From: a virus
Reading direction: 5' to 3' (one strand)
Length of the DNA stretch: 64,000 nucleotides
Virus record (IMG/VR): IMGVR_UViG_3300045988_087402
Shown here: one piece after another, positions 1,617 to 35,931 of the stretch
Layout of the letters: every line of letters starts with the position of its first letter
Position numbering within the stretch: the stretch's first letter is position 1
Notes under the pieces: generated by a model
Database searches by the model: none
Seen by the model: only the letters and a program-made list of their open reading frames with translations
Told to the model about the DNA's origin: nothing
Made by a program: the position numbers and the translations under genes

Positions 1617-3119
1617 TTAATATTTTAATATAGCTTTTTTTCTGGCTCGACTTAAAGCAACATAAATAAGTCGATTTCTCATATTAATATCATACGCCTT
1701 TTTATATCCTTTCGAACTTTGATACCAAGTAATATCTGTTAAATCTACAGCAACATTATCAAATGTACTTCCTTGTGATTTATGAACAGATAGTCCAAAT
1801 CCATAATCTATATCTTTTTTAATAACTTTTTCATTACCATAAGCATCATGTATTACAACAGGAATTAAAGTAAGAAAACGATTTTTAAAATTATAATACG
1901 CTTTCCAACCACCTCCTATACGTTTTAAACCATTTATATAAAGAGTTTGTAATACACGTTTATAAAGATTAAAACTTGCATCAGTATGGTCAACAATTAA
2001 GAAAGGGTCTGTCTTCCTTTCATCATACATAGATTGTAAATTAACTCCAAAGGTTTTAATTCCCTCATCTGATACATAATCTATAAGTTCATATATTATA
2101 TAATCTTCTGAATTAAGTATAATAGGTTCACTAAATTCATTCATTATAGTATTATATGAAGTAAATAAGTCATTCATACAAACTGCTGGAAGATTATCAC
2201 CTAATAGATTATTTCTAACATATTGATTCCAATTAAGAACATTATTATTTGTATAACTTAATATACGAATATAATCTGTATTAGACGGAATACCTTTTTT
2301 ATTATTACCTATAAAAGATTCACTACCTATTTCTTCTATACATTTAGATTTAAAATCTTCTCTATATAATAATTCGTATCCTCTATCGTTTATAATATTA
2401 CTTCTATTATTAATAATATAATTAAGAAAAGTATTACCTTTATTTTGAATATCATATCTAATAAGACTAAACAATTCAAGTAAAGGATTTCCTTCTTCTT
2501 GTCTAACAATAGTATCTAAAACTACTTTTCTCTTAATTGTAGCAAAAGTTGGTGACATATTTTCTTTAACAGGAGGTAACTGTAAACTATCACCAATATA
2601 TAAAACTTTTATTTTATGATTAGCACATACTTTTGTTATACGATTAAACAAACCTGTATTAACCATAGAACATTCATCAAGTAGTACAATTTTATAATTA
2701 ACAATTTTTAAATCAGAAAGTTGGTCATATTGCGGATTAGTTGGGTCAAAAGTAGTTAAATCTACATTCGGCTTTAATCCTAAAAGAGAATGTAGAGTTT
2801 TACCTTTATGATTTACTGTATTTTCTAATACTCGAAGAGCTTTATGTGTAGGAGCACTAATTGTCCAAGTTTTATCAATAATATTTTCAATAAAATATTT
2901 CATGATAAACGTTTTACCTGTTCCAGCATAACCTTCAAGAGTACAAAACAGTTCATTACTTTTATACCAATCTTCAAGTTGTTGTACAGCTCTTTCTTGA
3001 CTCGGATAAAGTTTAATATTACTATTTTTAACTTTATTAATAGCTGTATTACTTTTATTATTTACATTTGTATTAGCTTTTACAATATTATCTAATTTAT
3101 TTTTTTCAGTATCATTCAT
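1617..3119 (-). CDS. SF1B DNA helicase (Dda/RecD/PIF1-like)
   Basis: Walker A GYAGTGKTF, Walker B/motif II LLDECSMV, motif III YIGDSLQLPPV and motif V/VI SVHKSQGSTFDNV are all present. These are hallmark motifs of RecD/Dda-type SF1B helicases. Confidence 0.8.
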   Translation of the reverse strand: MNDTEKNKLDNIVKANTNVNNKSNTAINKVKNSNIKLYPSQERAVQQLEDWYKSNELFCTLEGYAGTGKTFIMKYFIENIIDKTWTISAPTHKALRVLENTVNHKGKTLHSLLGLKPNVDLTTFDPTNPQYDQLSDLKIVNYKIVLLDECSMVNTGLFNRITKVCANHKIKVLYIGDSLQLPPVKENMSPTFATIKRKVVLDTIVRQEEGNPLLELFSLIRYDIQNKGNTFLNYIINNRSNIINDRGYELLYREDFKSKCIEEIGSESFIGNNKKGIPSNTDYIRILSYTNNNVLNWNQYVRNNLLGDNLPAVCMNDLFTSYNTIMNEFSEPIILNSEDYIIYELIDYVSDEGIKTFGVNLQSMYDERKTDPFLIVDHTDASFNLYKRVLQTLYINGLKRIGGGWKAYYNFKNRFLTLIPVVIHDAYGNEKVIKKDIDYGFGLSVHKSQGSTFDNVAVDLTDITWYQSSKGYKKAYDINMRNRLIYVALSRARKKAILKY

Positions 3120-3122
3120 ATA

Positions 3123-3482
3123 TCAAAAAGGATTTTCTAATTGATTATTATCTCTGTTAATTTCCTTATGTAATATAGAAAAAGCAACGATAATAGAATT
3201 TTCATAAGTTGTATCATTTATATCTTCAATATCTACTTTAGCAAGTAATTCCATAAAAGTTTCATCAAAAGGATGGATATTATATTTATATATTCTAAAA
3301 CTATCTGGAAGAATAACAATTCCCATTTTATGTTTAGTAACTAAAAAATGATTTATTATAGTAAATTGAAACTTAATTGGTAACTTAGTAAAAAAAGCAG
3401 ATATATTATTATTATTTTCTCTAAGATATTCAGTAAAACTATTAAGAGCTTTATTAAAATTTCTTATCTTTTCTATTAGCAT
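3123..3482 (-). CDS. Hypothetical protein (early/replication arm)
   Basis: 119-aa ORF tightly packed behind the helicase on the same strand. Confidence 0.4.
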   Translation of the reverse strand: MLIEKIRNFNKALNSFTEYLRENNNNISAFFTKLPIKFQFTIINHFLVTKHKMGIVILPDSFRIYKYNIHPFDETFMELLAKVDIEDINDTTYENSIIVAFSILHKEINRDNNQLENPF

Positions 3483-3912
3483 TTTTAATATTATTTTGTG
3501 ATTTTAAATAACAAAGTTTACTAATAGTATTTACATAATCTATATCAAGAATAAAATAACCATCTTCTATAATACCTTTTATTCTTTGACGAGGTTTAAC
3601 AATACTCCAATATTTAATTGTAATATCTAATCTCGTACCATTTTTACTATTTTTCTTAATAGTCCAAGGTTTATGTTGATTATTAGTAATACCATTAGAA
3701 TATATATAATCAACATTATTTAAATCTTCTTGATTTATTTTAATAGGAATAAACTCGTAAGGTTTTTTATTTGATTTAGCATAAAACTTATTATCATAAA
3801 GAATAGCGACAGTATGTTTACTGCCGCTATTTTCTTTATCATTACTTCTTGTTCTTACTATACCTCTTTGTATATTATTCAGTTTCTCATAATTCATAAT
3901 TATTTTCCACAT
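3454..3912 (-). CDS. Hypothetical protein
   Basis: 152-aa ORF, co-oriented and overlapping its neighbours in operon-like packing. Confidence 0.4.
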   Translation of the reverse strand: MWKIIMNYEKLNNIQRGIVRTRSNDKENSGSKHTVAILYDNKFYAKSNKKPYEFIPIKINQEDLNNVDYIYSNGITNNQHKPWTIKKNSKNGTRLDITIKYWSIVKPRQRIKGIIEDGYFILDIDYVNTISKLCYLKSQNNIKNANRKDKKF

Positions 3913-4493
3913 TTATCACATACACATCGAAGCATACTTTTCTTATTGTTTACACCAATTTTTGTAAAGTCTTCTCGATTACAAGTTATAACATTACCTT
4001 TTGTAAGTTTGATTGTAAATTTATGTGTATTTTTATCAAACTTAGTAACTACACCAATTCTTTCATCTTTATGATAAAGAGAATTAGCATCTATTATAGA
4101 AATATTTGTTATCTCTACAGCTTCGTTAGGTACGGTTTTTGTATATATAGTTTCAAAAGCTCCTTGAATCTTAATTGTTACACCTTCTAAAAGAGCATCT
4201 AAATAAGTTTTATTAGTTTCTTCATCTTCATTATTAATTTTAGATTTTAGAAAGTCAGCTATAGAATCAAAATTTCCATGAATTATGCTATAAGTTTGAT
4301 TATCATATTCTCCAATAAATTTTGCAACTTTATTTCGTATATCTTTAATAGGATATATATTATTATCAGAAAGAGTTACATTCTTTTCTTTATAATCTAT
4401 ATTTTCTACTTTAAGAAGATTATTATCTATAAGAATATAATAATTCTTTTTTACAATAGTTTCTATCGGTATAAGTTTAAGAGTAAATTCCAT
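3900..4493 (-). CDS. Hypothetical protein with a C-terminal Cys cluster (CVCDKCGK)
   Basis: 197-aa ORF, same-strand operon packing, with a terminal zinc-ribbon-like Cys motif. Confidence 0.4.
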   Translation of the reverse strand: MEFTLKLIPIETIVKKNYYILIDNNLLKVENIDYKEKNVTLSDNNIYPIKDIRNKVAKFIGEYDNQTYSIIHGNFDSIADFLKSKINNEDEETNKTYLDALLEGVTIKIQGAFETIYTKTVPNEAVEITNISIIDANSLYHKDERIGVVTKFDKNTHKFTIKLTKGNVITCNREDFTKIGVNNKKSMLRCVCDKCGK

Positions 4494-4496
4494 AAT

Positions 4497-4931
4497 TTAA
4501 GATATTAATATTTTAGTTATTTTGACAACTTGATTTATCTTTTTACATATCTTATCTGATATAATAGTTATTAGAGTTTTATTATCATAAGAATTGGAAT
4601 CAAATAATACAGTACCTTTTTCAATAGCTATTTCATCTGAAGTTTCAATAAGTTTATCACAATATTTAAAACTATAATAAACCTTAAAAACTACAGAATT
4701 TGTAGCAAGTCGAACTTGGTCTTTAAACATCCAATATTCTTTACTACCTATTCTGACTAATACTTTATCAATTCCATATTCATTTTTTATATTAATTACT
4801 GTACCATAACGACTACGACTTGTTATAACTAAACTTCCGATTTTTATTTCGTCTATCATCGTTTTCTTCTTTAATATATTCTTTATTAGTTCTCTTATGT
4901 TTCTTATTCTTATTAAAATCATGAATTTCAT
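4497..4931 (-). CDS. Hypothetical protein
   Basis: 144-aa ORF, 4 nt from the upstream gene on the same strand. Confidence 0.4.
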   Translation of the reverse strand: MKFMILIRIRNIRELIKNILKKKTMIDEIKIGSLVITSRSRYGTVINIKNEYGIDKVLVRIGSKEYWMFKDQVRLATNSVVFKVYYSFKYCDKLIETSDEIAIEKGTVLFDSNSYDNKTLITIISDKICKKINQVVKITKILIS

Positions 4932-5172
4932 TAGAATAAGAATCCAAATCTCTAATATTAATTTTAGGCATTATATTTTATTTATATCTTTATGATATAC
5001 ACAAATATTATTTTCAAAAATATTATCGACAATTCGTTTATCAAGTCTTTTACAAATATAATAAGTTTTATTATCAACTTTTGTTTACGACTTTTATATG
5101 AATATATTTCTTACAATAATGTTCTTTTGGAATAACTTTTGGATTAATTTTAGATTTCATAGTTTTAATAGT

Positions 5173-5460: not shown

Positions 5461-5561
5461 AATAAAAGGATGTAATATTAATATATAATTAATACCACAT
5501 CCTATAACTAAAATATAATCATCTTAAACATAATCTTTATAATAAAGATTATTATCTTTTG

Positions 5562-5647
5562 TACCGAAAGCGGGAATCGAACCCGCACGACCTCTTATGG
5601 TCATAGGATTTTAAGTCCTACGTGTCTACCTATTCCACCATTTCGGC
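5562..5647 (-). tRNA. tRNA-Leu, anticodon UAA, type II with a long variable arm
   Basis: The minus-strand sequence GCCGAAATGGTGGAATAGGTAGACACGTAGGACTTAAAATCCTATGACCATAAGAGGTCGTGCGGGTTCGATTCCCGCTTTCGGTA folds as a cloverleaf. The acceptor stem is 7 bp (GCCGAAA/TTTCGGT with one G-U). The anticodon stem is TAGGA/TCCTA with loop CTTAAAA, giving anticodon TAA. The variable stem is GACC/GGTC. The T arm is GCGGG-TTCGATT-CCCGC. Confidence 0.85.
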
Positions 5648-5656
5648 GATTAAAAT

Positions 5657-5689
5657 AAGTAGTAAGATTTATCACAAATGTTACTACTT
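5657..5689. ncRNA. Stem-loop A. The stem is 9 bp (AAGTAGTAA/TTACTACTT) and the 15-nt loop is GATTTATCACAAATG. It lies 9 nt from the tRNA-Leu 5' end.
   Basis: Direct reading. It is paired with stem-loop B at 5750-5780, which has an identical loop but a different, fully compensatory stem. Both are preceded by TAAAATAA. Confidence 0.6.
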
Positions 5690-5749
5690 TGTCCATTCTA
5701 AACCTCTGACTATTTTATCATGAACAATGAAATTAATTTATAAAATAAT

Positions 5750-5780
5750 GCCAATAAGATTTATCACAAATGTTATTGGC
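5750..5780. ncRNA. Stem-loop B. The stem is 8 bp (GCCAATAA/TTATTGGC) and the 15-nt loop GATTTATCACAAATG is identical to that of stem-loop A.
   Basis: The loop is conserved and the stem has covaried against stem-loop A at 5657-5689. This is a structural, RNA-like conservation signature. Confidence 0.6.
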
Positions 5781-5879
5781 TTAATAATTAACCTTAAAAA
5801 CAAATAACTTTTATGAAAGAAAGTTAAGTCCTAACATGTTTAATTCTTCTATGAAACACTTTATTATTAAATATGTGTT

Positions 5880-5990
5880 TTTTATCATATTCTACTCGGC
5901 TGCCTTCAGGTCGAACGCGAGAATCCTCGCCGGACGGCCGGCGCGCGTCATCACGGGCCCCAGCCTTGGCGGCCTCTAAATCGAAAGGTT
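5880..5990. other. Isolated GC-rich island of about 110 nt (for example GCCGGACGGCCGGCGCGCGTCATCACGGGCCCCAGCCTTGGCGGCC) with local stems (GCGAG/CTCGC, GACG..CGTC, GGGCCCC) in AT-rich intergenic DNA. Candidate structured RNA or acquired fragment.
   Basis: Composition is completely unlike the flanks. There is no ORF of 60 aa or longer on either strand and I could not fit a tRNA cloverleaf. Confidence 0.35.
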
Positions 5991-6220
5991 TGAATTTATA
6001 TTCTATATCTATTTCTTTATTAGATAAATAATCCTGTTCATAATCACCGAGCCTGCATTTCCAGCAGCTTTTCCACTACAAAGTTTAATCTTATTTTTTA
6101 TATCTTTTTTAATAGTGAGTAAATATAAATATTATTTTTCAAAATCACAATAATTATTTATAAACTATTGCTAATATCTTTTAATATATCTTTTATTTTA
6201 TCATTAAATATAATACTATA

Positions 6221-7289: not shown

Positions 7290-7583
7290 TTACAATTTAA
7301 TTTTATAAGAATAACTTACATCAACAACATATCCTCTATTTCTAAGCTCTTCTATAATATCTCTCAATGAATCTATTAGCTCACGAGGTTTATAATTAGA
7401 TAATTCATCATTAGATTTGCGAATTATCGGAACTCTATTTTTATTTTTATTTTTTTTAGAACAATCAATACATATATTAGTATGCATGTCCTTTGAACGA
7501 TTATTGTATGTAAATAGATTTATGTCTTTTTCTTCATTACAAATTTTACAAACTTTTGTAACTGTTGTATTATTAGTTTCCAT
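7290..7583 (-). CDS. Small Zn-ribbon protein (CxxC...CxxC)
   Basis: Contains CKICNEEK...CIDCSKK and is 4 nt from the downstream gene. Confidence 0.4.
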   Translation of the reverse strand: METNNTTVTKVCKICNEEKDINLFTYNNRSKDMHTNICIDCSKKNKNKNRVPIIRKSNDELSNYKPRELIDSLRDIIEELRNRGYVVDVSYSYKIKL

Positions 7584-8205
7584 AGTATTATATTTATATT
7601 ATATTTATAGTATTATTATATCTTCTTGTAAATTATCTCTTCTAATTTTACTTATACATCTTATAAAATTATTTACAAATTCTATAAATAAATCTTTATT
7701 TTCAAAAGATATAGAAGTAATTCTTAAATCATCAGGTTCAACATTAGATTCAAAACTTAAATCATCGTTGTCTAAAAATCTAATGTATAAATATTATCAT
7801 GTGTTATTATATTTCTTATATCATTTATATCATAAGTAAATATCTTATCTTCTATTGTAGTTACAATTAAAGTTTCTTCTAATATTTAATCGTAATAGAT
7901 TTTATATTATAAGTTGTACCATTTGGTATAATAATTTTTGCATTTTCCATAGTAATAATTTGATTAGCTTCCATAAGATAATTTGTTTTAAGTTTAATAT
8001 TAATTTATTTTAAATAAAATTTAAATTCTAATGAAAATAGTATGACAATTAGTATTCAAAAAATTATTCAAAAGAGTCTACAAATTGATAATAATCAACA
8101 TAAAGATAATCCTTTTGAAAATAAGATTAAAAAAGATAATTAAATGAATAATGAAGATTATCTTTATGTTGATAAAGAAAATAGATTAAAAGAAAATGAT
8201 AAAAC

Positions 8206-8784
8206 GAATAAAGATAAATGTAAAGAAATATAGAATTAAAAGATGATATTAAAAATGATTAAAAAGATGAAAAAAAATATGATAGAAAATATGATAGAAA
8301 ATATGATAGAAAATAAAGATGAAGAAGATGATATTGAAAATAAAGATGAAGATAAATTAAATGATTAAAAAGAAAATAAAAGAAAAGATGATTAAAAAAT
8401 GATTAAAAAGAAAATAAAAAGAAAATAAAAAGAAGATGATTAAAAAGAAAATAAAAAGAAAATAAAGAAAAGATGATTAAAAATGATAATGAAGAAGATG
8501 AAGAAGATTAATATAAAGATAATGAATAAAATGAAAGAAGATTAATATAAAGATAATGAAGAAGATGAAGAAAAGATAATGAATAAATGAAAGAAAAGAT
8601 AATGAATAAATGAAAGAAAAGATAATGAATGATAATGAAAGAAATGAAAGAAAAGATGAAGAAGATTAATATAAAGATAATGAAGAAGATGAAAGAAAAG
8701 ATAATGAATGATAACGAGATATTTAATAAAAAATAAAATAATGAAAAGATGAAGAAAAAGATGAAAGAAAAGATGAATATTAAG
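8206..8784 (+). repeat. Purine-biased repeat block. 8206-8714 on the plus strand contains no C at all (509 nt), and 8206-8784 contains a single C. It is built of nested imperfect tandem repeats.
   Basis: Direct base-by-base reading. Units include GATGAAGAAGAT..., GATGATTAAAAAGAAAATAAAAAG, GATAATGAATAAATGAAAGAAAA, and (ATATGATAGAAA)x3 at 8277-8312. Confidence 0.85.
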
Positions 8785-8994
8785 CTCCTTTTACACCTTC
8801 ATTTACTTTTCATCCAATTATTTTTACAATTATTTTTCTTCTTCATTTTTCTTCTACTTTTCCTCCACTTATATTTCAAAATAACTTTTTTAATCTTTTT
8901 AATCTTTTCTCTACTTATTATCAATCTTTATTCAACTTATTTTCCAACTATTTTTCAAACTATTATCTCAATTCTTTCTCCACTTATTATTAAT
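8785..8994 (+). repeat. Pyrimidine-biased block. 210 nt of the plus strand contain no G (CT-rich low complexity). G-poor composition continues to about 9150.
   Basis: Direct reading. It abuts the C-free block, so the local strand skew inverts sharply at about 8785. ORF 8749-9147 on the track is a low-complexity artefact. Confidence 0.8.
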
Positions 8995-9578
8995 GCTATT
9001 TTTCAATCTTCTAATAAAATAAATTTTGGTCTTCATATTGAAATTCATTTTCTAATTATTGAAATTAATTATCCATTTAATATTTCACTAACTTATTCTC
9101 CAGCTATTCTACAAACTGCTTCTTTTATTAATTTTATAGTTACTTGAAGAATACGTTGGACAAATAGTATATTTAATAGTATTTCAATTAATCGAAATTC
9201 TAATGATATTCTTCATAAACCTTCTCGAAGAATACGTCGGATAAATATTCTTCTTATAATTATTATAAATTCTTATGATATAGCTGGTAATATAATTATT
9301 AATATAATTATTAAACCTGTTAGTATACCAATTATCATACTAATTATATCATTTCGAGATATAGTGCATCTGGATTTATTCATATAGTAAATGGTATTAC
9401 AACTGTTATGAAAATTGATAATCTTAATGTTATACAAAATGGTCAATTTTTGCAAATGATTGACTATCATATCCTATAAGAAAATCTTATTGTTATTTGA
9501 ATAACAATGCCATTTTCCAATGAATTTTTTTTGGAAATTATTTGGAAAATAGATTGAAATTTATTTTTTATAAATTAT

Positions 9579-9620
9579 ATAATTATTAATATAATTATTA
9601 ATATAATTATTAATATAATT
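9579..9620 (+). repeat. Tandem 12-mer array (ATAATTATTAAT), about 3.5 units. Related copies occur at 9291-9316 and 10036-10058.
   Basis: Direct reading. Confidence 0.7.
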
Positions 9621-9710
9621 AGTCTACAAGAAAGCGGTCAAAATACGGGTCAAATTGATATTAGAATTACTGCAAAAGTTACTGCAAAAGAACCATTAGG
9701 AACTCTTTTT

Positions 9711-9758
9711 AGAAATACTATTAGAAATACTATTAGAAATACTATTAGAAATACTATT
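9711..9758 (+). repeat. Tandem 12-mer array (AGAAATACTATT)x4. It is preceded by the duplicated ACTGCAAAAG at 9669-9690.
   Basis: Direct reading. Confidence 0.75.
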
Positions 9759-9780
9759 AGAAAATATAATGTAAATAAGA

Positions 9781-9835
9781 TTACAATTAATTGTCCATCT
9801 TCCGAATATTCTTCGGATAGAAATGTTGAAATTAG
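9781..9835 (+). repeat. A direct repeat of about 50 bp (ACAATTAATTGTCCATCTTCCGAATATTCTTCGGATAGAAAT...) that recurs at 10214-10268. It contains the hairpin TCCGAA-TATTC-TTCGGA.
   Basis: Direct reading. It has a 6-bp perfect stem and a 5-nt loop. Related GAAGAATACGT(T/C)GGA(C/T)AAATA motifs occur at 9157-9178 and 9226-9247. Confidence 0.65.
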
Positions 9836-10083
9836 TATGACATTTAATGGTAAATAAATTACTAAAAATAATACGGAAAATGAAGATGCTCCAGATAATA
9901 TATTTCGAGATAAAATTGAAGATATGATTGAAGATAATTCTAAAGATGGATTTGAAGGTAGACTTTAAGATAATTTAGAAAGTGTATGTAAAGATGATTG
10001 TAAAGATATAGTTTGAGATTTAAATTGAAATACAATTATTAATATAATTATTAATACAATTTTAAATTATATAAATATGTTAG

Positions 10084-10104
10084 TTGCAAAGACAGTTGTA
10101 ACGT
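10084..10104 (+). repeat. GTTGCAAAGACA-GTTGTAACG, a two-unit remnant of the 12-mer array seen at 1-60. It lies upstream of GC element copy 2.
   Basis: Same unit and same arrangement as at the window start, so the whole block of about 80-100 bp is a direct repeat about 10 kb apart. Confidence 0.7.
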
Positions 10105-10122
10105 TTGGACGTATTGTTTAAT

Positions 10123-10148
10123 GGCCACAAGGGCAAGGGAGTGTTCCG
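10123..10148 (+). repeat. GC-rich conserved element, copy 2 (GGCCACAAGGGCAAGGGAGTGTTCCG, followed by ATATTCGTTAATC)
   Basis: Aligns to copy 1 including the ATATTCGTT tail. It carries ATG plus 12 codons (MATRARECSDIR*) as in other copies. Confidence 0.85.
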
Positions 10149-10383
10149 ATATTCGTTAATCATTTATTTAATATTCATTTTACAATTAATAGAAATAATA
10201 ATGTAACTTCTATAACAATTAATTGTCCATCTTCCAAATATTCTTCGGATAAAAATATTAAATTTAAAGATACATATATTAAGATTATAAATAATAGGAG
10301 AGTTTTTTATTTTAAAGATATTATAACTTTTATCCATAAACACTTTAAAATTAATAATAGAACTCTCCTATGAACACTTTTAA

Positions 10384-10764
10384 TTAAAACAATAACACAA
10401 ATATAATACCTAATATTGAAACTAATAAAGCTATTGATAGAATAACTATTATAGTTTTATATGTTTTATTAGCTTTAGAAGCTAATATATATCTTACGGA
10501 AGTTTTACTTAAAGCTATTGATGAATAATTTGTTAAACGAATTAACATCTTTTTTAGTTCTTTACTTTCTAATAAAAGCTCTGATATAATTCGTTTTAAA
10601 TCTTCATCAGTATATATTTCTGGAATTAGTTCATTTACTTCTTTTTGAACATCTTTTTCTTTATCTGTTAATTCTGCTGATACTTGTACTTTTAAAAGTC
10701 TTATTAAAGTTTTTAATTGAACTGTTGCTATAATTATTTTTACAAATTCTTTATTAGTTTTCAT
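10384..10764 (-). CDS. Hypothetical tail-anchored membrane protein (C-terminal TM IIVILSIALLVSILGIIFVLLF)
   Basis: 126-aa ORF. It is one of only two credible genes inside the 5.5-kb repeat region. Confidence 0.4.
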   Translation of the reverse strand: MKTNKEFVKIIIATVQLKTLIRLLKVQVSAELTDKEKDVQKEVNELIPEIYTDEDLKRIISELLLESKELKKMLIRLTNYSSIALSKTSVRYILASKANKTYKTIIVILSIALLVSILGIIFVLLF

Positions 10765-10870
10765 AGTAGATAATGGTATTATTTATATAAATAAAAGTGT
10801 TCAAAATATGTTTAAAGTGGAATTTTAAAAAGAGGATAATGGCCATTTACACCATTATCCTCTTAGTTAT

Positions 10871-11470
10871 TTACGAGTTCTTCACAAGGGCGAGCATTTT
10901 TATGAAGAAGTTATCATCATCTTCGCTAACTCCCGGAATATAATTTCGACCTTTCATTTCATGAAAGTATACTTTAGCTTCTTCGGTACGACCTTTGGCT
11001 TGATAAGCCTGTGCATACTTGTTAGCTTCAGCTTCTCGAATTATATGACCTTCGAGAGTACCTACGATATTCCGGAATATATAATTTCCGGCATTACGAT
11101 ATTCGTGAACTCCACCGTCTTTGTCTACATAACCGTATTTATTACCGTCATTCGGTACATATACGACTTCGACTTTCAGATACAACGGACGTTCAGTTTC
11201 CGTATTATAGTTACCCTCTCGAATGATATGGTCAAGATTAAATACTTCAACCATATCAACACCTGCAGACAAACGAACTGGTTCGTTATTTGCGACATTC
11301 AGAGCACTGATAGCGAAATACTTTCGGCCATCACGTTCAATTCGAGCTATTTTATGAATAGCTACACCGATGATTTCAGGTTTAAGACTTGTGTTAATTT
11401 CATTAACAACTGCTTTAACAACTGGTTTTTCTACAGCTACGGAAGCTGCATTGGCTTCAACTTGTGCCAT
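10871..11470 (-). CDS. Hypothetical protein with GC content clearly higher than all neighbouring genes (atypical codon usage)
   Basis: 199-aa clean ORF. It uses many CGN/CCG/GGC-type codons absent elsewhere. ATTCCGGAAT-type palindromes lie within and upstream of it (11504-11513, 11537-11546). Confidence 0.5.
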   Translation of the reverse strand: MAQVEANAASVAVEKPVVKAVVNEINTSLKPEIIGVAIHKIARIERDGRKYFAISALNVANNEPVRLSAGVDMVEVFNLDHIIREGNYNTETERPLYLKVEVVYVPNDGNKYGYVDKDGGVHEYRNAGNYIFRNIVGTLEGHIIREAEANKYAQAYQAKGRTEEAKVYFHEMKGRNYIPGVSEDDDNFFIKMLALVKNS

Positions 11471-11503
11471 GTTTCAAATGATTTAAAAGTTTGACAAATA
11501 GTA

Positions 11504-11513
11504 ATTCCGGAAT
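11504..11513. promoter_or_regulatory. Perfect 10-bp palindrome ATTCCGGAAT, with an imperfect second copy ATTCCGGATT at 11537-11546 (centres 33 bp apart). Both lie in the 5' region of gene 10871-11470. A TTGACA hexamer is at 11491-11496 and TAAATG is 16 nt downstream on the plus strand.
   Basis: Direct reading. Operator-like spacing of about three helical turns. Related TTCCGGAAT sequences occur inside the gene at about 10926-10936 and 11083-11110. Confidence 0.35.
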
Positions 11514-11689
11514 AAATGAATTAAATTCTGTTACCCATTCCGGATTATGAGTAACAAGATTAGTTTGTATGATACTTTTCGAATTTTAATTTGTAACAAA
11601 ATCGGAATTACGACACACACCAATTATAAGTGGGGGGTTTCTAAAAGTAGAAAGGTGGGGAGGGTTGTTATATAAGGTACTTCCTATAA

Positions 11690-12460
11690 GAGTATTTTTA
11701 TATTTATCAGATATATTATTTCAAACACTATTACATATATTTTCATTATTTATTATTCAGTCTTTCTACAATAACATTTTCATTATTCATATTTCTATAT
11801 TGACTTTAAATTCTTTACACTTTATTTTTTTCATTATTTATTCTATACTCTATAATCTTTTCTATAATCTTTTCTATAATCTTTTCTATAATCTTTTCTA
11901 TAATCTTTTCTCGTATCTATTGTATATCTATTTATAAGAACACTTTTATATTCAATAAATATAATATCTTTTGCAACAATTCTTTCCTATCTTTTTATAC
12001 ATTATTATCTCTTTTTTACAATACCTTTTACAATACCTTTTTAAACATCTCTTTTTACAATATTTTTTTATAATTTATAAGAACACTTTTATATTTAATA
12101 GATACAACATTTTCAATAATATCTATTTTATTATTTCTTCCTATATCTCTATTATAATTTACAATACCTTTTAAACATTATTTAGATACATTTTTAGATA
12201 AACTTCCTATAAGAACACTTTTATATGATTAATATTTACAATCAACTTTACTCTTTTCAACATTATCTTTTAATTCCTATAAGAACACTTTTATACATTT
12301 GATTAATATCTTTTCTTACATCTTTTCTGACAACACTTTTATATTTAATAAATATATTATTTTTAATAATATTTTATTTACTTTTAATAATGTCTTTTAC
12401 ATCATCTTTTACATCATCTTTAAATTTTCTTTTTAATTTTATATAAGATTTTGTAAAATT
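11690..12460 (+). repeat. G-depleted low-complexity block. Roughly 20 G in about 770 nt on the plus strand. It carries (TATAATCTTTTC)x5 at 11851-11910 and five same-orientation copies of TATAAGAACACTTTTATA.
   Basis: The 18-mer copies are at 11933-11950, 12076-12093, 12208-12225, 12278-12295 and a partial one at 12330-12344. The 12-mer array was read directly. ORFs 11665-11937 and 11971-12174 on the track are artefacts. Confidence 0.8.
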
Positions 12461-12869
12461 GTTTTACAATTAAATGTAATAAAAGTATCATCTTAATTTT
12501 AAATAGTATTATAATCTACAAGTACATCATTTTCAATACTATTTTCAATACTATTTATATCAATACTTATATTAATATTTATACCAGTAGTTTTAATATG
12601 ATTATAATTCGAGTCGAACTTTAATTAATATTTATTAATCGAAAGTGATTAATTTTAATATTAATTCTAATATTAATTTAAAGAATAATGCGATGGAAAG
12701 CAATAGCGAGAGCGAAAGCAGATAGATAATAATTAGTAAATATAATAATTTAAGGAGAGCGAAAGCGACAATTATATTAATAATATATTTAATAATTAAT
12801 GTAGCTACAAGTGCGAGATTATAATGACGAATAATTGAAAGAGAATTAAGAAGAGCTTCGGAAGAATTT

Positions 12870-12893
12870 CGGAACACTCCCTCCCTTGTGGCC
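12870..12893 (-). repeat. GC-rich conserved element, copy 4 (reverse orientation). Reverse complement: TTAATGGCCACAAGGGAGGGAGTGTTCCGAAATTC.
   Basis: Aligns with copy 1 including the CTCCG-GTTAAT left flank. It sits in an inverted position relative to copy 2, about 2.7 kb away. Confidence 0.8.
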
Positions 12894-12930
12894 ATTAACT
12901 CGGAGAAATACAAGTATCTATATTATTTAT

Positions 12931-12978
12931 AATAATATTTCTAATAGTATTTACAATAGTATTTACAATAGTATTTCT
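12931..12978 (+). repeat. Tandem 12-mer array (AATAGTATTTAC/AATAGTATTTCT), about 4 units, immediately upstream of the late arm
   Basis: Direct reading. Confidence 0.7.
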
Positions 12979-13153
12979 AATAATAGTTATTATAATTTTA
13001 TCCTTGATATATTTTACAGATAGTCTGTATGCTTCTTTTATACCTATTAATATAAATATCTTCTGTATTTGGATTTATAATGATTAATATATATATTGGT
13101 ATCGAAATAAATATGATAGTACATTTATTAATAACTAAATAATCAAATAAACT

Positions 13154-13573
13154 ATGGAAAATAAAGTTATGATTGGTTATCGTGAGCCTAAGAGTATTAT
13201 TGATGCTAAAGCTGTAGGAAGTAAAGTTATAGTAAAATCTTATTTTGAAGTTTCACCTCTTATGGTAGAAGATGATAAAGCTCTTCAGAATATGTCTCCT
13301 ATAAAAATAGAAGTTGTAGCTTATGGTAGAAATACTTATGATATTGAGATAGGAGATAAAGTTCAAATCAATCCTACAAATGTTTCAAGAATTAATTTTA
13401 AATGGAATGATAAAAGTATTATGAATTATCTTGAAAATTCTAAATTAAATAAGATTTTATATAGAGGAAAAGAACATGTTATTTGTGAGGAATATTATCT
13501 TTGTGAAATGATTGATATTCTTATTGTAGATACTTATAATGAAAATAATATACGAAAAATTCTTGAAAATTAG
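13154..13573 (+). CDS. Hypothetical protein (first gene of the rightward arm)
   Basis: 139-aa ORF. A start-stop overlap (ATG at 13574 follows TAG at 13571-73) couples it to the next gene. Confidence 0.45.
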   Translation: MENKVMIGYREPKSIIDAKAVGSKVIVKSYFEVSPLMVEDDKALQNMSPIKIEVVAYGRNTYDIEIGDKVQINPTNVSRINFKWNDKSIMNYLENSKLNKILYRGKEHVICEEYYLCEMIDILIVDTYNENNIRKILEN

Positions 13574-13975: not shown

Positions 13976-14954
13976 AGGCAGGATTCTTTTCTTTAATGAA
14001 GAGAATCATAAATATGTTGATGATTTGGGTAATCCTTATATTTCAGTTACTACTTTAATTCATAAATATACAGAAGAATTTAAAGAGAATGAAATAGCTA
14101 AAGCCTGTGAGAGAATAGGTAAGAATCCAAATCATCCAAAATATCTTACTTATAAAGGTAAGTCAGCTAAACAACTAAAACTTGAATGGCAAGCTGAAAG
14201 AGATAGAGCGTGTTCTGAAGGAACTAAGAAACATAATTATCTTGAAGATTGTATTAAATCTAATAACGGATATAAAAAGAATGCGAAAGGATTTATAGAT
14301 GATAGAATATATACAATAGATGATATTATAAAGAATCATAGATATGGTATATTAAATATTGATTCTTTTGCTAAAAGTGGTATTAAAGATAGGTATCCGA
14401 CAATTTACAATACTATTGCTGGTCTTGTAAATGTCGGATTTAAGATTTATGCAGAAATTGGAACTTATGATTATAAATATTTAGTAAGTGGTTTAATTGA
14501 TGTTTTATTAGTTAGAGATAAAGAATTTATAATATTAGATTGGAAAACTAATAAAGCTCCTATTAAATTTGAAGGTGGTTATTGGTCTAAAAATAAGAAC
14601 GGAGAACTTGATTTTGATGACACTGGAAATATATTAAATGAATATAATTATACAGGTAAAACATTTCAATATCCTCTTGATAAATTAGAAGATAGTTCTG
14701 GTAATATATATGCTATGCAATTAAGTACTTATGCACATCTTGTTGAAACTTTTGGATATAAATGTGTAGGACTTATTCTATGTCATATTAGAACAGTGCC
14801 TGAAAAACGAGATATATTTGATAGAGTTATAAGAAATGAATTTCAAGTTGTAGAAATAAAGAAGTTTCCTTATTTGAAAAATGAAGTTGTAACTATGTTA
14901 AATGATTATGCTAAAAAAAATATAAATAATACTACAATTAATAAATTTATATAG
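13941..14954 (+). CDS. PD-(D/E)XK nuclease (RecB/Cas4/lambda-exonuclease-like)
   Basis: The motif GLIDVLLV...EFIILDWKTNK matches the hhD...hhD(Y/W)KT core of RecB-family nucleases. The start was chosen at the in-frame ATG at 13941 (MPNLV) rather than the track's 13794. Confidence 0.5.
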   Translation: MPNLVSTQLMSKGRILFFNEENHKYVDDLGNPYISVTTLIHKYTEEFKENEIAKACERIGKNPNHPKYLTYKGKSAKQLKLEWQAERDRACSEGTKKHNYLEDCIKSNNGYKKNAKGFIDDRIYTIDDIIKNHRYGILNIDSFAKSGIKDRYPTIYNTIAGLVNVGFKIYAEIGTYDYKYLVSGLIDVLLVRDKEFIILDWKTNKAPIKFEGGYWSKNKNGELDFDDTGNILNEYNYTGKTFQYPLDKLEDSSGNIYAMQLSTYAHLVETFGYKCVGLILCHIRTVPEKRDIFDRVIRNEFQVVEIKKFPYLKNEVVTMLNDYAKKNINNTTINKFI

Positions 14955-14956
14955 AT

Positions 14957-15577
14957 ATGAGACTTTATGATTATTTTATTAATAATAAAGATTTAATAAA
15001 TCATTTAGAAAGTATAGCTATAAATAAAGGATATTCTTTTTTTAAATATAAAGATAATATTAATTTGAATATTAATCTTTGGGGTATTAGAAGTAATGAT
15101 AAAGATACTACTAAATTTAATGATGTTTGTCTAATGTTTTATCAAAATAAAGATACTACTTGGACAATTCATACTTATAAAATAACAACAGACCCTTCAA
15201 ATGTAAATCTTCAAAAACCTATAAATAAAAATGGAACAGCTATTGTAAAAGAGGGTCAATATAAAGGTTTATTTAAAGTTGGTTTACATAAAGGATACGA
15301 AGCGTTAGTTCAAGCAGTTCCTATTACTGTTATAAGAGATAATAATAAAGATGATATATTAGATATAAAAAATAATAAAGAAGAAACTGGAATGTTTGGT
15401 ATAAATATGCACAGAGCTTCTATTAATGGTAATAATAATGAAATAGGTTTATATAGTGCAGGATGTCAAGTTCATCAAGATTATAAACGATTTACTTATG
15501 AATTTATGCCTATAATTAAGAGTGCTATTGGTAAAAGTTCTATTACATATACTCTTATAAATGAAGATGATTTATGA
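14957..15577 (+). CDS. Putative cell-wall-active enzyme with a YkuD/L,D-transpeptidase-like catalytic signature (H-x16-SAGCQV). Candidate lysis enzyme.
   Basis: GINMHRASINGNNNEIGLYSAGCQVH fits H...[S/T]xGC of the YkuD fold. It sits directly upstream of membrane/coiled-coil lysis-like genes. Weak. Confidence 0.3.
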   Translation: MRLYDYFINNKDLINHLESIAINKGYSFFKYKDNINLNINLWGIRSNDKDTTKFNDVCLMFYQNKDTTWTIHTYKITTDPSNVNLQKPINKNGTAIVKEGQYKGLFKVGLHKGYEALVQAVPITVIRDNNKDDILDIKNNKEETGMFGINMHRASINGNNNEIGLYSAGCQVHQDYKRFTYEFMPIIKSAIGKSSITYTLINEDDL

Positions 15578-34180: not shown

Positions 34181-34501
34181 ATGGATACAATAGAAACTTT
34201 TATTTCTCCTTTCTATATTATTTCTAATAATCTTATAATTTATATTATTATAAATAATATAGAATATTATATAAAAAATGTTAAACATAAAGATTATCTA
34301 AAAACTGTTTATAAAAAGATAATAACTATTATAATTTCTATTATTACAAGTATTATAGCTGTTATTATATTCGATAAAGATTTAGAAGCTATTGTTACTT
34401 CCGCTTTATTAAGTATTGTATTTTATGATTATATTGTTAAGTATATTATTAAAGGTGTAAAAAACAAAACTTCTAAATATAATAAGAATGGTGATAAGTG
34501 A
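34181..34501 (+). CDS. Small membrane protein
   Basis: 106 aa and hydrophobic (IITIIISIITSIIAVIIF). Confidence 0.35.
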   Translation: MDTIETFISPFYIISNNLIIYIIINNIEYYIKNVKHKDYLKTVYKKIITIIISIITSIIAVIIFDKDLEAIVTSALLSIVFYDYIVKYIIKGVKNKTSKYNKNGDK

Positions 34502-35863: not shown

Positions 35864-35931
35864 ATTAAACTGTATTTCAAACTATATAACATACTGTATA
35901 TCCAATTATATTTAATATTATATTTAATACT

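What the first reader, a model, noticed from the sequence alone, without database searches (positions are those of the whole stretch)
7600..13150. A repeat-saturated divergence region of about 5.5 kb with almost no credible genes, where one strand is depleted of C or of G
Between the leftward and rightward gene arms lies a region with no convincing genes except two small ones. It contains 509 consecutive nt with no C on the plus strand (8206-8714, A/G/T only), immediately followed by 210 nt with no G (8785-8994). A further roughly 770-nt block (11690-12460) has only about 20 G. Phage genomes are normally densely coding, so 5.5 kb of structured non-coding DNA is unusual. Such strict single-base exclusion on one strand over hundreds of nt is not produced by ordinary AT-richness. 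Candidate explanations are an origin or DNA-unwinding and packaging region. A second is long non-coding transcripts selected to be unstructured or to avoid a nuclease or modification motif. A third is avoidance of cytosine-targeting deamination or restriction on one strand, which is notable next to a UDG gene. A fourth is H-DNA-prone mirror repeats. The switch at about 8785 is abrupt.
Basis: seen in the sequence. Interest (0 to 1): 0.75.

Follow-up and report, generated by a model that had tools for sequence, protein, structure and literature searches.

The report
Strand-lopsided repeat blocks around phage SSB
A gut crAss-like phage carries hypervariable non-coding repeat blocks, each missing one base (C or G) on one strand, around a likely single-strand-binding-protein gene; smaller versions sit at the same places in other crAss-like phages, so the layout is probably a control element, though its function is untested.

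Summary
8206-8714 has no C (509 nt; the longest such run outside the region is 88 nt). 8785-8994 has no G (210 nt). 11690-12460 has 21 G. Nothing comparable occurs in the rest of the 83-kb genome.

The window is crAss-like phage cr127_1 (Kahucivirus intestinalis, Crevaviridae). The region is non-coding under any stop-codon reassignment. It brackets a small minus-strand gene island: an OB-fold, SSB-like gene of raised GC (10871-11470) and a variable 126-aa gene.

The blocks are built from short tandem repeats, mostly of 12 nt. Strains differ by indels of 12, 24, 36, 48 and 144 nt, and the C-free run ranges from 277 to 509 nt. Sequence is not conserved but composition is. The same order of blocks occurs in two other related species. 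It occurs in miniature (about 50-230 nt per run) in cr8_1, cr271_1, crAss002 and the prototypic crAssphage.

Both strands of the blocks have almost no folding potential. They are also the largest C>G "bubbles" in the window.

Best reading (about 0.4): transcribed but untranslated spacers whose polarity follows transcription direction, Rho-proof in one sense and Rho-trapping in the other. Main rival (about 0.25): replication-origin unwinding elements. Neither was tested. H-DNA, a deamination link to UDG, alternative coding and assembly artefact are rejected.

The parts
7620..7950 (-). Frameshifted pseudogene, the equivalent of cr127_1 gp09 (115 aa). The neighbouring gp08 of the reference (a 478-nt segment) is absent here.
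   Evidence: tblastn finds three fragments in three frames: aa 1-22, 14-59 and 59-111. The 478-nt insertion in the reference lies at about 7950.
8206..8784 (+). Block A. It is C-free on the plus strand (509 nt, one C at 8715, then 69 nt) with 80% purine. It is a low-complexity mosaic of repeats with periods of 12, 11, 23, 34, 37, 46 and 79 nt. Every G but one is followed by A.
   Evidence: MFE is 0 on both strands. It is the largest C>G bubble for leftward RNA in the window. Its length is 277-509 nt among strains.
8785..8994 (+). Block B. It is G-free on the plus strand (T 54%, A 24%, C 22%). The abrupt purine-rich to pyrimidine-rich junction with block A lies at 8715-8785.
   Evidence: The run is 166-224 nt in strains. 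It is not a specific inverted copy of block A: the local alignment score equals the shuffle mean.
8995..10380 (.). Mixed non-coding segment found only in this species. It holds 12-nt arrays (9577-9621, 9709-9763, 10029-10065) and an 80-nt direct repeat (9755-9834 and 10187-10266). It also holds a frameshifted gp03-like ORF (10146-10361, plus strand) and a 144-nt presence/absence polymorphism at about 9161.
   Evidence: Substitutions show no third-codon-position excess (33/33/20).
10118..10156 (+). Left arm of a GC-rich inverted repeat of about 35 nt (TTTAATGGCCACAAGGG...GGGAGTGTTCCG). It includes an ATG and an 'MATR...' start.
   Evidence: Read from the sequence. Searches show both arms start small ORFs with the same N-terminus.
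10384..10764 (-). 126-aa gene that varies strongly between strains (61 variable sites, with no third-position bias). A promoter-like motif copy lies 28 nt upstream of its ATG (10793-10802, minus strand) and an inverted copy lies just past its stop (10372-10381, plus strand).
   Evidence: There is no family match except a sub-threshold DnaI_N hit (E = 0.009).
10871..11470 (-). 199-aa protein with an OB fold (SSB/PriB/RPA-like) followed by long C-terminal helices. Its GC is 38-39% in a 26% GC genome. It is the positional counterpart of the 'putative ssb' gp02 of the prototypic crAssphage.
11630..11685 (+). G-run element (GTGGGGGG...GGTGGGGAGGG) followed by the conserved GGTACTTCC. It lies between the OB-fold gene and block C.
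   Evidence: Sequence. The same G-runs and GGTACTTCC occur at the same place in the related species L013.
11690..12460 (+). Block C. It is G-depleted on the plus strand (21 G, 109 C, T 51%). It holds 12-nt arrays (TCTATAATCTTT x5.2 and others). It also holds an array of a roughly 35-nt motif with core TATAAGAACACTTTTATA, all on the plus strand, at 11685, 11933, 12076, 12208, 12278 and 12326.
   Evidence: Eleven of the 21 G lie in the motif copies. In divergent strains the block cannot be aligned, yet it keeps 2.2-2.9% G and about 7 motif copies. It is the largest C>G bubble for rightward RNA.
12635..12895 (-). Possible 86-aa hydrophobic ORF inside a G-rich island. Its start lies in the right arm of the inverted repeat (12862-12900).
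   Evidence: Indels between strains here are in-frame (-3, -3, -6), but the ORF is 71 aa in divergent strains and substitutions show no third-position bias. Its status as a gene is uncertain.
12920..13001 (.). 12-nt tandem array (ATAGTATTTACA-like, about 7 copies) just upstream of the first right-arm gene (13154).
   Evidence: It is the inverted partner of the 9709-9763 array (I1-I6).

Best explanation
What it is (shown). This is the non-coding control region at the head of the replication-gene arm of a crAss-like phage. A small island holds an OB-fold, SSB-like gene and a variable small gene. The island is bracketed by low-complexity blocks that are conserved in strand composition and position but not in sequence. 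In this genus they are inflated about 5-10 fold by replication slippage, mostly in 12-nt steps.

How it most likely works (inferred). The blocks are transcribed but untranslated spacers, and the polarity of each block reports the direction of transcription through it. All genes of this phage have a purine-rich, C-poor sense strand. In stretches free of amino-acid constraint the same pressure goes to the extreme. On this reading, blocks C and B are the leader and trailer of the leftward, probably very highly expressed, SSB unit; their RNA would be C-poor or C-free. Block A belongs to a short opposite unit.

The abrupt switch at about 8750 would then be where the two polarities converge and transcription ends.

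The proposed selective agent is the host termination factor Rho. Untranslated RNA without C offers Rho no loading site, so the sense transcript survives. The same DNA read the other way gives G-free, C-containing, structure-free RNA, which is an ideal Rho loading site. Read-through or antisense transcripts would therefore be stopped before they enter the replication arm or the structural arm.

On this model only composition matters. Slippage can expand, shrink or replace the sequence freely, provided the excluded base stays excluded.
For: Shown:
- No coding capacity under standard, TAG-sense or TGA-sense codes, and no third-position bias in substitutions.
- The polarity of every block matches the sense-strand bias of the genes. 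Coding sense is A 38.6, C 11.1, G 16.3, T 34.0. Blocks B and C are purine-rich on the strand of the island genes they flank.
- The blocks are the top C>G bubbles in 64 kb: first and second for rightward RNA and first for leftward RNA.
- Folding energy is 0 kcal/mol in 150-nt windows of blocks A and B, against a genome mean of -22 and -19.
- G+C is kept at 15-22% but placed entirely on one strand. C is 14-22% in the G-free sense, above the genome's 11%.
- Composition and position are conserved without sequence conservation. This holds across strains and two further species. It holds in miniature in cr8_1, cr271_1, crAss002 and Carjivirus communis, with G-free runs of 70-133 nt, about the size of one Rho loading site.

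From the literature:
[quoted passage not shown] That study also tested the prediction that regions without C>G bubbles lack Rho-dependent signals; I saw only the heading and set-up, not the result (PMC6144790).
- Bacteroidota have Rho (PMC12360218).
- In crAssphage metatranscriptomes the SSB genes are the most often and most highly expressed genes (PMC10983915).
- A crAss-like phage (phi14:2) makes abundant long non-coding RNAs from long intergenic regions next to its early genes (bioRxiv 10.1101/2020.03.07.982082).
Against: - There are no expression data for this phage, so transcript directions, starts and ends are all inferred.
- Other untranslated gaps inside operons are not C-depleted in the sense strand (C 10.4% overall). 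This includes a 573-nt gap at 5648-6220 with 11.3% C. The rule is therefore not general.
- The promoter-like motif copies in block C point rightward. If they are promoters, block C RNA would be the G-poor sense, opposite to the leader reading.
- If the island is transcribed by the phage's own virion RNA polymerase, Rho may be irrelevant.
- Blocks of 500-770 nt with strictly zero C go far beyond what Rho evasion or loading needs.
- Bacteroidota Rho has an N-terminal insertion, and its RNA preferences are not established.
- No canonical Bacteroidetes promoter was found to anchor the units.
Confidence: 0.4

Rival explanations
1. Replication origin(s), acting as DNA-unwinding and SSB-loading platforms. 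The duplex is AT-rich, and its separated strands lack G or C. They therefore cannot fold on themselves, and the locally made OB-fold protein could coat them and hold them open for helicase and primase. The motif array in block C would serve as iterons. The purine-to-pyrimidine polarity puts a pyrimidine-rich 3' half on each strand, so 5'-to-3' helicases loaded there would move apart. This rival is compatible with the best explanation if the origin is activated by transcription.
For: - The region lies at the divergence of the two arms and directly upstream of the replication genes.
- It is 79-85% AT and has the lowest single-strand folding potential in the window on both strands.
- An SSB-like gene sits between the blocks.
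- An 18-nt core motif occurs 4 times exactly and 2-3 times degenerately in direct orientation. It is confined to this region, with 6 hits of GAACACTTTT against 0.13 expected.
- One copy overlaps the promoter region of the adjacent small gene, as in iteron plasmids.
- In the prototypic crAssphage, OriFinder places two origins about 2.6 kb apart, at the divergence gap and just after the small genes, and long-read coverage is highest there (PMC10983915). Those two gaps are where I find the compositional landmarks.
Against: - No initiator (Rep, RepL or DnaA-like) is detectable next to the blocks.
- DnaA boxes are not enriched (22 found, 21.9 expected).
- The motif spacing is irregular (48-248 nt).
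- The junction between blocks A and B has terminus-like skew polarity, not origin-like.
- Keeping 15-22% G:C pairs works against easy melting.
- OriFinder uses compositional asymmetry, so its prediction is not independent of the skew. The coverage evidence is of low resolution.
- No characterised origin has base-excluded blocks of 500-770 nt.
Confidence: 0.25
2. Largely neutral slippage debris. The phage's replication machinery produces 12-nt tandem duplications everywhere. In a region with no coding constraint these accumulate, and expansion of seeds that happen to lack one base, together with strand-biased mutation from heavy transcription or replication, gives base-free blocks with no function of their own.
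For: - Period-12 tandem repeats occur genome-wide, with 13 outside the region, several of them inside genes.
- Close strains differ almost only by indels of 12, 24, 36, 48 and 144 nt.
- Block lengths vary about two-fold.
- Blocks A, B and C share only composition, not homology.
- The region also contains decayed genes.
Against: - Repeat copies within block A are only 62-87% identical, yet none of those differences is a C.
- Block C has diverged beyond alignment between strains yet keeps 2.2-2.9% G.
- The same order and polarity of blocks recurs in three species and, in miniature, in four phages of a second family.
- The C-free strand is A-rich rather than T-rich, which does not fit deamination.
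- Half of the few G in block C sit in the conserved motif copies.
Confidence: 0.17
3. DNA-end or entry functions. On this reading the region contains the physical genome ends or packaging signals, or it is the first DNA to enter the cell. Its three-letter strands would make it free of every palindromic restriction or methylation site that contains G or C.
For: - crAss001 has long terminal repeats, and its early genes lie at one end of the linear genome (PMC8375218 and PMC10136315).
- Near-full-length contigs end inside the blocks (cr127_1 at about 11903, L034 in block A, L044 next to block C).
- A strand lacking C or G cannot carry any palindrome containing G/C. This follows from the sequence itself.
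Against: - Contig ends are scattered (8384-8956 in L013 coordinates). They are explained by assembler breaks in repeats.
- The terminase genes lie about 5 kb away.
- No read-level evidence on termini is available.
- The idea does not explain the conserved polarity or why two blocks bracket the SSB-like gene.
Confidence: 0.08
4. Coding after all. On this reading the region is a nursery or graveyard of tiny, fast-evolving low-complexity ORFs rich in K, E, D, N and I, or it is translated under an unusual code.
For: - Block A and its L013 counterpart show period-3 autocorrelation.
- 12-nt units equal four codons.
- The sense strands are purine-rich like coding strands.
- The reference annotates 30-38-aa ORFs here, and a 68-aa ORF exists in the block of L013.
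- A 19-nt string (AATAAAGATAAATGTAAAG, encoding NKDKCK) is shared between the two species.
- Yutin et al. noted regions of short, non-matching ORFs in crAss-like genomes (PMC7886860).
Against: - Every frame is full of TAA and TGA, so no single reassignment opens a frame.
- No suppressor tRNA was found; the only tRNA is Leu-UAA.
- Substitutions show no third-position excess.
- Repeat periods of 11, 23, 37, 46 and 79 nt break any frame.
- The motif copies fall in different frames.
Confidence: 0.07

Closest known systems
ORF-less regions of crAss-like phage genomes (Yutin et al. 2021, PMC7886860)
   Same: These are regions that encode no recognisable proteins and hold only short ORFs of both polarities. 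Their predicted products do not match even between otherwise near-identical genomes. That describes 7600-13150 versus cr127_1 exactly: 99.8% identity in the right arm, but indels and divergent patches here.
   Different: That paper reports the phenomenon mainly for the Zeta group and gives no anatomy. It does not mention single-base exclusion, block polarity, 12-nt slippage, or the association with an SSB-like gene.
The two predicted replication origins of the prototypic crAssphage, Carjivirus communis (Schmidtke et al. 2024 preprint, PMC10983915)
   Same: The genomic positions are the same: the head of the replication arm, two sites 2-3 kb apart bracketing a few small genes that include an SSB gene. 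I find a 225-nt C-free run upstream of gp02 ('putative ssb'). I also find a junction of C-free (1790-1963) and G-free (1981-2050) sequence in the 1714-2373 gap.
   Different: Those origins are computational predictions supported only by low-resolution coverage. The blocks there are about 55-225 nt rather than 210-770 nt. RepL and the toxin-antitoxin genes are not detectable in this phage. The two SSB-like proteins share no detectable sequence similarity.
Rho utilisation (rut) sites and C>G bubbles of bacterial Rho-dependent terminators
   Same: They are untranslated, unstructured, G-poor and C-containing RNA of at least 60-80 nt with spaced YC dinucleotides. They are defined by composition rather than by sequence (PMC6144790).
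   Different: Known rut sites are about 80 nt and only moderately skewed. Here G is absolutely excluded over 210-580 nt. The elements are paired back-to-back, so that each direction meets a C-free stretch first and then a G-free stretch. Rho dependence was not tested, and the host is unknown.
Long non-coding RNAs from intergenic regions of the crAss-like phage phi14:2 (Drobysheva et al., bioRxiv 10.1101/2020.03.07.982082)
   Same: They come from long gene-free stretches next to early genes in a crAss-like phage. They are transcribed at high level from the earliest time point, and their function is unknown.
   Different: The phi14:2 regions (1279-1983 and 2905-4601) show no base exclusion (longest C- or G-free run 55 nt or less), no 12-nt periodicity and no strand skew.
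Translational operator of the phage T4 gene 32 (SSB) mRNA
   Same: It is an unusually structure-free leader upstream of a phage SSB gene, and the SSB binds it cooperatively. This comes from my own knowledge and was not checked here.
   Different: The T4 operator is tens of nucleotides long, lies directly before the start codon, and is nucleated by a pseudoknot. Here the structure-free block is 770 nt and is separated from the ATG by about 220 nt of GC-rich sequence. Similar blocks also lie downstream of the gene.

Membership tests
Iteron-type replication origin | AT-rich DNA-unwinding element | tested here: met
   The blocks are 79-85% AT. The separated strands have the lowest folding potential in the window.
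Iteron-type replication origin | Several direct repeats of a motif of about 17-22 bp (iterons) | tested here: inconclusive
   The 18-nt core occurs 4 times exactly and 2 times degenerately on one strand in block C, and it is confined to this region. However, the spacing is irregular (48-248 nt), and the motif is equally promoter-like: one copy lies 28 nt upstream of a gene's ATG and is conserved in L013.
Iteron-type replication origin | Adjacent initiator gene (Rep, RepL or DnaA-like), or DnaA boxes | tested here: not met
   The flanking genes have no Pfam or PHROG initiator match. DnaA boxes occur at the chance level.
Iteron-type replication origin | Replication starts there | not testable with these tools
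   This needs marker-frequency or nascent-strand data.
Rho-dependent terminator (rut site) | C>G bubble of at least 60-80 nt in the transcript | tested here: met
   The blocks are the largest bubbles in the window in the relevant sense. The criteria are taken from PMC6144790.
Rho-dependent terminator (rut site) | Unstructured and untranslated RNA | tested here: met
   MFE is 0 to -9 kcal/mol per 150 nt in the G-free sense. There are no ORFs and no coding signature.
Rho-dependent terminator (rut site) | The region is transcribed in that sense, and termination depends on Rho | not testable with these tools
   There are no expression data. The host and its Rho are unknown.
Protein-coding region under an alternative genetic code (as in other crAss-like phages) | Long ORFs appear when TAG or TGA is read as sense; a suppressor tRNA is present | tested here: not met
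   All six frames keep many TAA and TGA codons. The only tRNA is Leu(UAA). The flanking arms read normally in the standard code.
H-DNA / triplex-forming mirror repeat | Uninterrupted homopurine-homopyrimidine mirror repeat of about 15 nt or more | tested here: not met
   None of the eight longest pure-purine runs (12-21 nt) lies in the blocks, so in-block purine runs are at most about 12 nt. The longest pure-pyrimidine run in them is 12 nt (8833-8844). The best purine runs of the window lie elsewhere.
Long inverted repeat / cruciform or hairpin terminator at the junction of blocks A and B | The arms are specifically complementary beyond their composition | tested here: not met
   The alignment score of one arm against the reverse complement of the other equals the shuffle mean in the window. 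It is at most z = 2.9 in one of five relatives. The fold z-score is -1.7.
Known structured RNA families (Rfam) | Match to a covariance model | tested here: not met
   There was no hit at E = 5 or below in 7400-13300. Only the tRNA matched at gathering thresholds.
SSB-type OB-fold protein (for the 199-aa gene) | OB-fold barrel resembling single-strand-binding proteins | tested here: met
SSB-type OB-fold protein (for the 199-aa gene) | Sequence membership in an SSB family, and binding to single-stranded DNA | tested here: not met
   There is no Pfam hit, and only a weak hit (E = 0.0068) to a PHROG family of unknown function. No similarity to crAssphage gp02 was found. Binding itself cannot be tested here.

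The most novel reading that the evidence does not exclude
Crassvirales of the Intestiviridae and Crevaviridae lineages may mark the boundaries of their SSB gene island with 'compositional diodes'. These would be non-coding DNA in which one base is excluded per strand. A transcript in one direction would carry no C and be invisible to the host terminator Rho. A transcript in the other direction would carry no G and be an ideal Rho trap. Such an element would be defined purely by a three-letter alphabet, with no sequence requirement. That would explain why it can be hypervariable and yet conserved. The same property could double as a structure-free platform for loading the adjacent SSB-like protein at a replication origin.
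Probability: 0.3. Interest if true: 0.8.

Novelty: new variant of a known kind. Interest (0 to 1): 0.62.

Why it matters
crAss-like phages are the most abundant viruses of the human gut. How they control early transcription and start replication is largely unknown.

This analysis turns a vague remark in the literature ("regions without recognisable genes") into a defined architecture that can be looked for elsewhere. A highly expressed SSB-type gene is flanked by strand-asymmetric blocks, each excluding one base. Their polarity and position are conserved from the prototypic crAssphage to this Crevaviridae phage, while their sequence changes between strains.

If the blocks act through composition alone, as Rho-proof and Rho-trapping RNA or as fold-free single strands for origin opening, they would be a regulatory element defined by alphabet rather than by sequence. 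That would be of general interest for phage biology and useful for synthetic insulators.

There are two practical consequences. The blocks explain why assemblies of these phages break here and why annotators call spurious small ORFs. Their 12-nt copy-number variation is also a ready strain marker.

The hypothesis can be tested directly in cultured relatives (crAss002, Carjivirus communis), which carry the miniature form.

Tried and rejected
- Alternative genetic code. Six-frame translation with TAA, TAG and TGA marked separately gave no open frame, and no suppressor tRNA was found.
- Hidden conserved genes. Substitutions in 9330-10380 show no third-position excess.
- Known RNAs. Rfam gave nothing at gathering thresholds or at E = 5 or below.
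- Promoter and terminator scans. Sigma-70-like sites occur at the shuffle level, and only one terminator-like hairpin was found. The Bacteroidetes -7 motif TAnnTTTG occurs only three times in the region, with no full -33/-7 pair.
- DnaA boxes occur at the chance level.
- H-DNA. The blocks contain no long homopurine or homopyrimidine run.
- Giant hairpin or inverted duplication at the junction of blocks A and B. The arms are complementary only in composition, both in the window and in five relatives.
- Deamination decay. The C-free strand is A-rich, not T-rich.
- A general rule that untranslated sense RNA is C-poor. This does not hold for the other intra-operon gaps.
- Similarity to the phi14:2 lncRNA regions or to the crAss001 early region. 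They share no compositional features.
- A Rho footprint as the reason for the 12-nt period. The cryo-EM footprint quoted in the review (5 bound nt plus 4-5-nt linkers, about 9-10 nt per subunit) does not match 12 nt, although the 9-13-nt linkers cited in PMC6144790 would allow it. More tellingly, period-12 repeats also occur in genes and in C-free sequence. The link was therefore dropped.
- Finding relatives through the OB-fold protein in IMG/VR failed twice. Relatives were reached through the right-arm nuclease and through the metagenome collection instead.
- Contig ends as evidence for genome termini. They are scattered within the repeats and are uninformative.
- Locus L041 is a chimeric contig, joined to bacterial MerR-like genes at a low-complexity junction. 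It was excluded.
- afdb50 was not available for the fold search.

Full report
OBSERVATION. The base counts are exactly as reported. 8206-8714 contains A 321, T 101, G 87 and no C. After a single C at 8715 there are 69 more C-free nt. 8785-8994 contains T 113, A 51, C 46 and no G. 11690-12460 contains 21 G against 109 C. The longest C-free run outside the region is 88 nt and the longest G-free run outside it is 91 nt. The 19 kb of the reference genome not covered by the window has at most 84 and 61 nt. At the window's base frequencies the chance of such runs is about 3e-27 and 2.5e-15 per start position (my arithmetic). GC skew flips from +1.0 to -0.95 at 8715-8785. Elsewhere the window is densely coding; the apparent gap from 53293 is a single ORF of at least 3569 aa that runs off the end.

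IDENTITY AND CONTEXT. The window is the crAss-like phage cr127_1 (NC_055886, 83,412 bp, human faeces). Its taxonomy is Crassvirales, Crevaviridae, Doltivirinae, Kahucivirus intestinalis. The right arm is 99.8% identical to the reference. The left arm (minus strand) carries replication genes: helicase, UDG, DNA polymerase, primase and ligase. The right arm (plus strand) starts with small genes and a PD-(D/E)XK nuclease, followed by terminase and portal. The GenBank record is cut inside the 12-nt array at about 11903. For that reason the region looks split in the reference.

WHAT IS AND IS NOT CODING. No frame of the blocks opens under the standard code or when TAG or TGA is read as sense; TAA and TGA litter all frames. 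The only tRNA is Leu(UAA). Across ten strains and the reference, substitutions in 9330-10380 fall 33/33/20 on the three codon positions.

There are genes and gene remnants in the region:
- A 199-aa gene (10871-11470, minus strand) with 38-39% GC.
- A 126-aa gene (10384-10764, minus strand) that is very variable and shows no third-position bias.
- A frameshifted pseudogene of reference gp09 (7620-7950); the reference carries an extra 478 nt with gp08.
- A frameshifted copy of reference gp03 (10146-10361).
- A possible 86-aa hydrophobic ORF (12635-12895, minus strand). Its start, together with that of the gp03-like ORF, forms the 35-nt GC-rich inverted repeat 10118-10156 / 12862-12900.

ANATOMY OF THE BLOCKS. 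The region is a mosaic of short tandem repeats. Twenty-one of the roughly fifty arrays have period 12. Block A also has periods of 11, 23, 34, 37, 46 and 79 nt. In block A, 86 of 87 G are followed by A, and the vocabulary (AAAAGA, AAAGAT) is shared with the purine-rich strands of blocks B and C. This shared vocabulary is compositional only. Neither B nor C matches A better than shuffled sequence does. Block A and its counterpart in a related species show period-3 autocorrelation. Period-12 duplications also occur elsewhere in the genome, some of them inside genes. Slippage in 12-nt steps is therefore a property of this phage, not of the region.

STRAIN VARIATION. Independent assemblies of the same species were compared: the reference and metagenome contigs L028-L042 (97-99% identity in the 199-aa protein). 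They differ in the arrays almost only by indels of 12, 24, 36, 48 and 144 nt. The C-free run is 509, 445, 327, 314, 298 or 277 nt. Block A always contains exactly one C, the same one in every strain. The G-free run is 166-224 nt. In the more divergent strains (L034, L040, L042) block C can no longer be aligned. It still has 2.2-2.9% G and 14-16% C, and it keeps about seven copies of one motif. Composition is therefore maintained while sequence is not.

THE MOTIF. The core TATAAGAACACTTTTATA, which extends to about 35 nt as TTCCTATAAGAACACTTTTATATTTAATAAATATA, occurs four times exactly and twice degenerately. All six copies lie on the plus strand of block C. GAACACTTTT occurs six times in 64 kb, all in this region, against 0.13 expected. 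One copy lies on the minus strand 28 nt upstream of the ATG of the 126-aa gene. An inverted copy lies just past that gene's stop codon. The related species L013 has a diverged version (CTTCC...ACAYTTATATT) at the same places, including upstream of its small gene. Eleven of the 21 G of block C lie in the motif copies. The motif could be a promoter, an operator or an iteron. It is not a canonical Bacteroidetes promoter.

CONSERVATION OF THE ARCHITECTURE. Loci from IMG/VR (L009-L026; one species, about 61% identity in the nuclease) and a third species (L044; 36% identity in the 199-aa protein) were examined. They show the same order: left arm, C-depleted block, short G-free stretch, small gene, high-GC gene, G-run element with GGTACTTCC, G-depleted block of 400-900 nt, G-rich island, right arm. 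The high-GC protein of L013 is a remote homologue of the window's protein (hhalign probability 96%).

The same landmarks occur in miniature in the family Intestiviridae:
- cr8_1: C-free 3706-3796 abuts G-free 3797-3885, and G-free 5903-5984 lies next to the high-GC gp54.
- cr271_1: C-free 516-651, then G-free 655-724, and G-free 2056-2188 next to the high-GC gene.
- crAss002: C-free 90291-90347, then G-free 90344-90442.
- Carjivirus communis: a 225-nt C-free run directly upstream of gp02 ('putative ssb'), and C-free 1790-1963 followed by G-free 1981-2050 in the next large gap.

In each of these loci the longest or second-longest C-free and G-free runs are neighbours. The junction is always purine-rich then pyrimidine-rich, which reads the same way on both strands. 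The early regions of phi14:2 and crAss001 (Steigviridae) lack these features.

PHYSICAL PROPERTIES. In 150-nt windows, blocks A and B fold with 0.0 kcal/mol on both strands, against genome means of -22 and -19. The plus strand of block C folds at -2 to -9. These are the least structured windows of the 64 kb. With the 78-nt C>G 'bubble' measure used for Rho loading sites, block C and block B rank first and second for rightward RNA, and block A ranks first for leftward RNA.

MECHANISM. All genes of this phage have a purine-rich, C-poor sense strand. Each block has that same polarity taken to the extreme. Blocks C and B follow the sense of the minus-strand island. Block A follows the plus sense. 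The simplest unifying reading is that the blocks are transcribed, untranslated spacers, and that the abrupt switch is where two polarities converge.

A plausible selective agent is Rho. [quoted passage not shown] C-free RNA would escape it. The same DNA transcribed the other way would be an ideal trap. This would insulate the highly expressed island from both arms. Such a function depends on composition only, which would explain hypervariability together with conservation. I rate this at about 0.4.

Its weak points are these. No expression data exist. Other long untranslated gaps are not C-depleted. The motif copies in block C point the 'wrong' way if they are promoters. Rho may not act on the phage's own polymerase.

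The main rival (about 0.25) is that the blocks are origin-unwinding and SSB-loading elements. In its favour are the position at the head of the replication arm, the SSB-like gene, the fold-free AT-rich strands, the iteron-like array, and the two origins predicted at the equivalent gaps of crAssphage (PMC10983915). Against it are the absence of an initiator gene, the chance-level DnaA boxes, the terminus-like polarity of the junction, and the fact that OriFinder itself relies on compositional asymmetry. The two readings are not mutually exclusive.

Three further rivals are less likely. Neutral slippage debris shaped by biased mutation is rated about 0.17. A terminal or entry function is rated about 0.08. 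Cryptic mini-ORFs are rated about 0.07.

COMPARISON AND NOVELTY. The literature records ORF-less, non-matching regions in crAss-like genomes (PMC7886860). It records abundant non-coding RNAs from early intergenic regions of phi14:2. It also records predicted origins at the head of the crAssphage replication arm. In the literature I could search, none describes the single-base exclusion, the conserved purine-to-pyrimidine junction, the bracketing of an SSB-type gene, or the 12-nt slippage dynamics. I therefore class this as a new variant of a known, unexplained kind of region.

Noticed in passing
whole window, e.g. 1-55, 5124-5156, 35867-35937, 53063-53107, 55857-55894: Tandem duplications with a 12-nt unit occur throughout the genome, several of them inside genes. 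There are 13 arrays outside the region, against 2 of period 15 and 1 of period 18. Indels between strains are multiples of 12. This suggests a slippage step specific to this phage's replication machinery.
   Followed up: partly
7620-7950 (minus strand), and about 7950: This strain has a frameshifted remnant of reference gene gp09 and lacks the 478-nt segment carrying gp08. The stretch 7300-7950 is only 68-86% identical to the reference, while the flanks are about 98-100% identical, which suggests a recombinational replacement.
   Followed up: partly
10118-10156 and 12862-12900: A GC-rich inverted repeat of about 35 nt, with arms 2.7 kb apart, flanks the gene island and block C. Each arm contains an ATG and the same 'MATR...' N-terminus of a small ORF. 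All strains examined were collinear, so inversion of the segment was not seen.
   Followed up: partly
8207-8225; L013 6289-6307: A 19-nt string (AATAAAGATAAATGTAAAG) at the left edge of the C-free block is identical in a species that otherwise shares no alignable sequence there. It may mark a small conserved ORF (NKDKCK) or a signal.
   Followed up: no
5461-6220: A second gene-free gap of 760 nt lies about 2.5 kb into the left arm. It contains tRNA-Leu(UAA) at 5561-5647, G-free runs of 74 and 91 nt, and a 12-nt array. Unlike the main blocks, its sense strand is not C-depleted overall.
   Followed up: partly
45763-53292 and 53293-64000+: Two giant ORFs lie back to back. One is 2509 aa. The other is at least 3569 aa (4133 aa in the reference) and runs off the window. 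I presume these are the virion RNA polymerase and associated giant proteins typical of crAss-like phages; this was not checked.
   Followed up: no
34194-34272: A 68-nt G-free run with tandem repeats of 15, 19 and 27 nt lies at a small gap inside the right arm. It could be a minor internal punctuation element of the same compositional type.
   Followed up: no
L041 (contig OLVZ01007837.1), first about 1580 nt in window orientation: A low-coverage metagenome contig joins unrelated MerR-like bacterial genes to the phage at the low-complexity AAAGAAAATAATGAAAAGATG junction. It is probably a chimeric assembly caused by the repeats.
   Followed up: partly
NC_055886 record 12271-13458 and 14081-15205 (outside the window): The DNA polymerase of the reference is annotated as two ORFs separated by about 620 nt. 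This could be an intron, an intein or a frameshift, as reported for other crAss-like phages.
   Followed up: no
BK010471 96908-100 (gp01): The annotated 'hypothetical protein' gp01 of the prototypic crAssphage lies entirely inside its 225-nt C-free block upstream of the ssb gene. It is probably a spurious ORF call.
   Followed up: no
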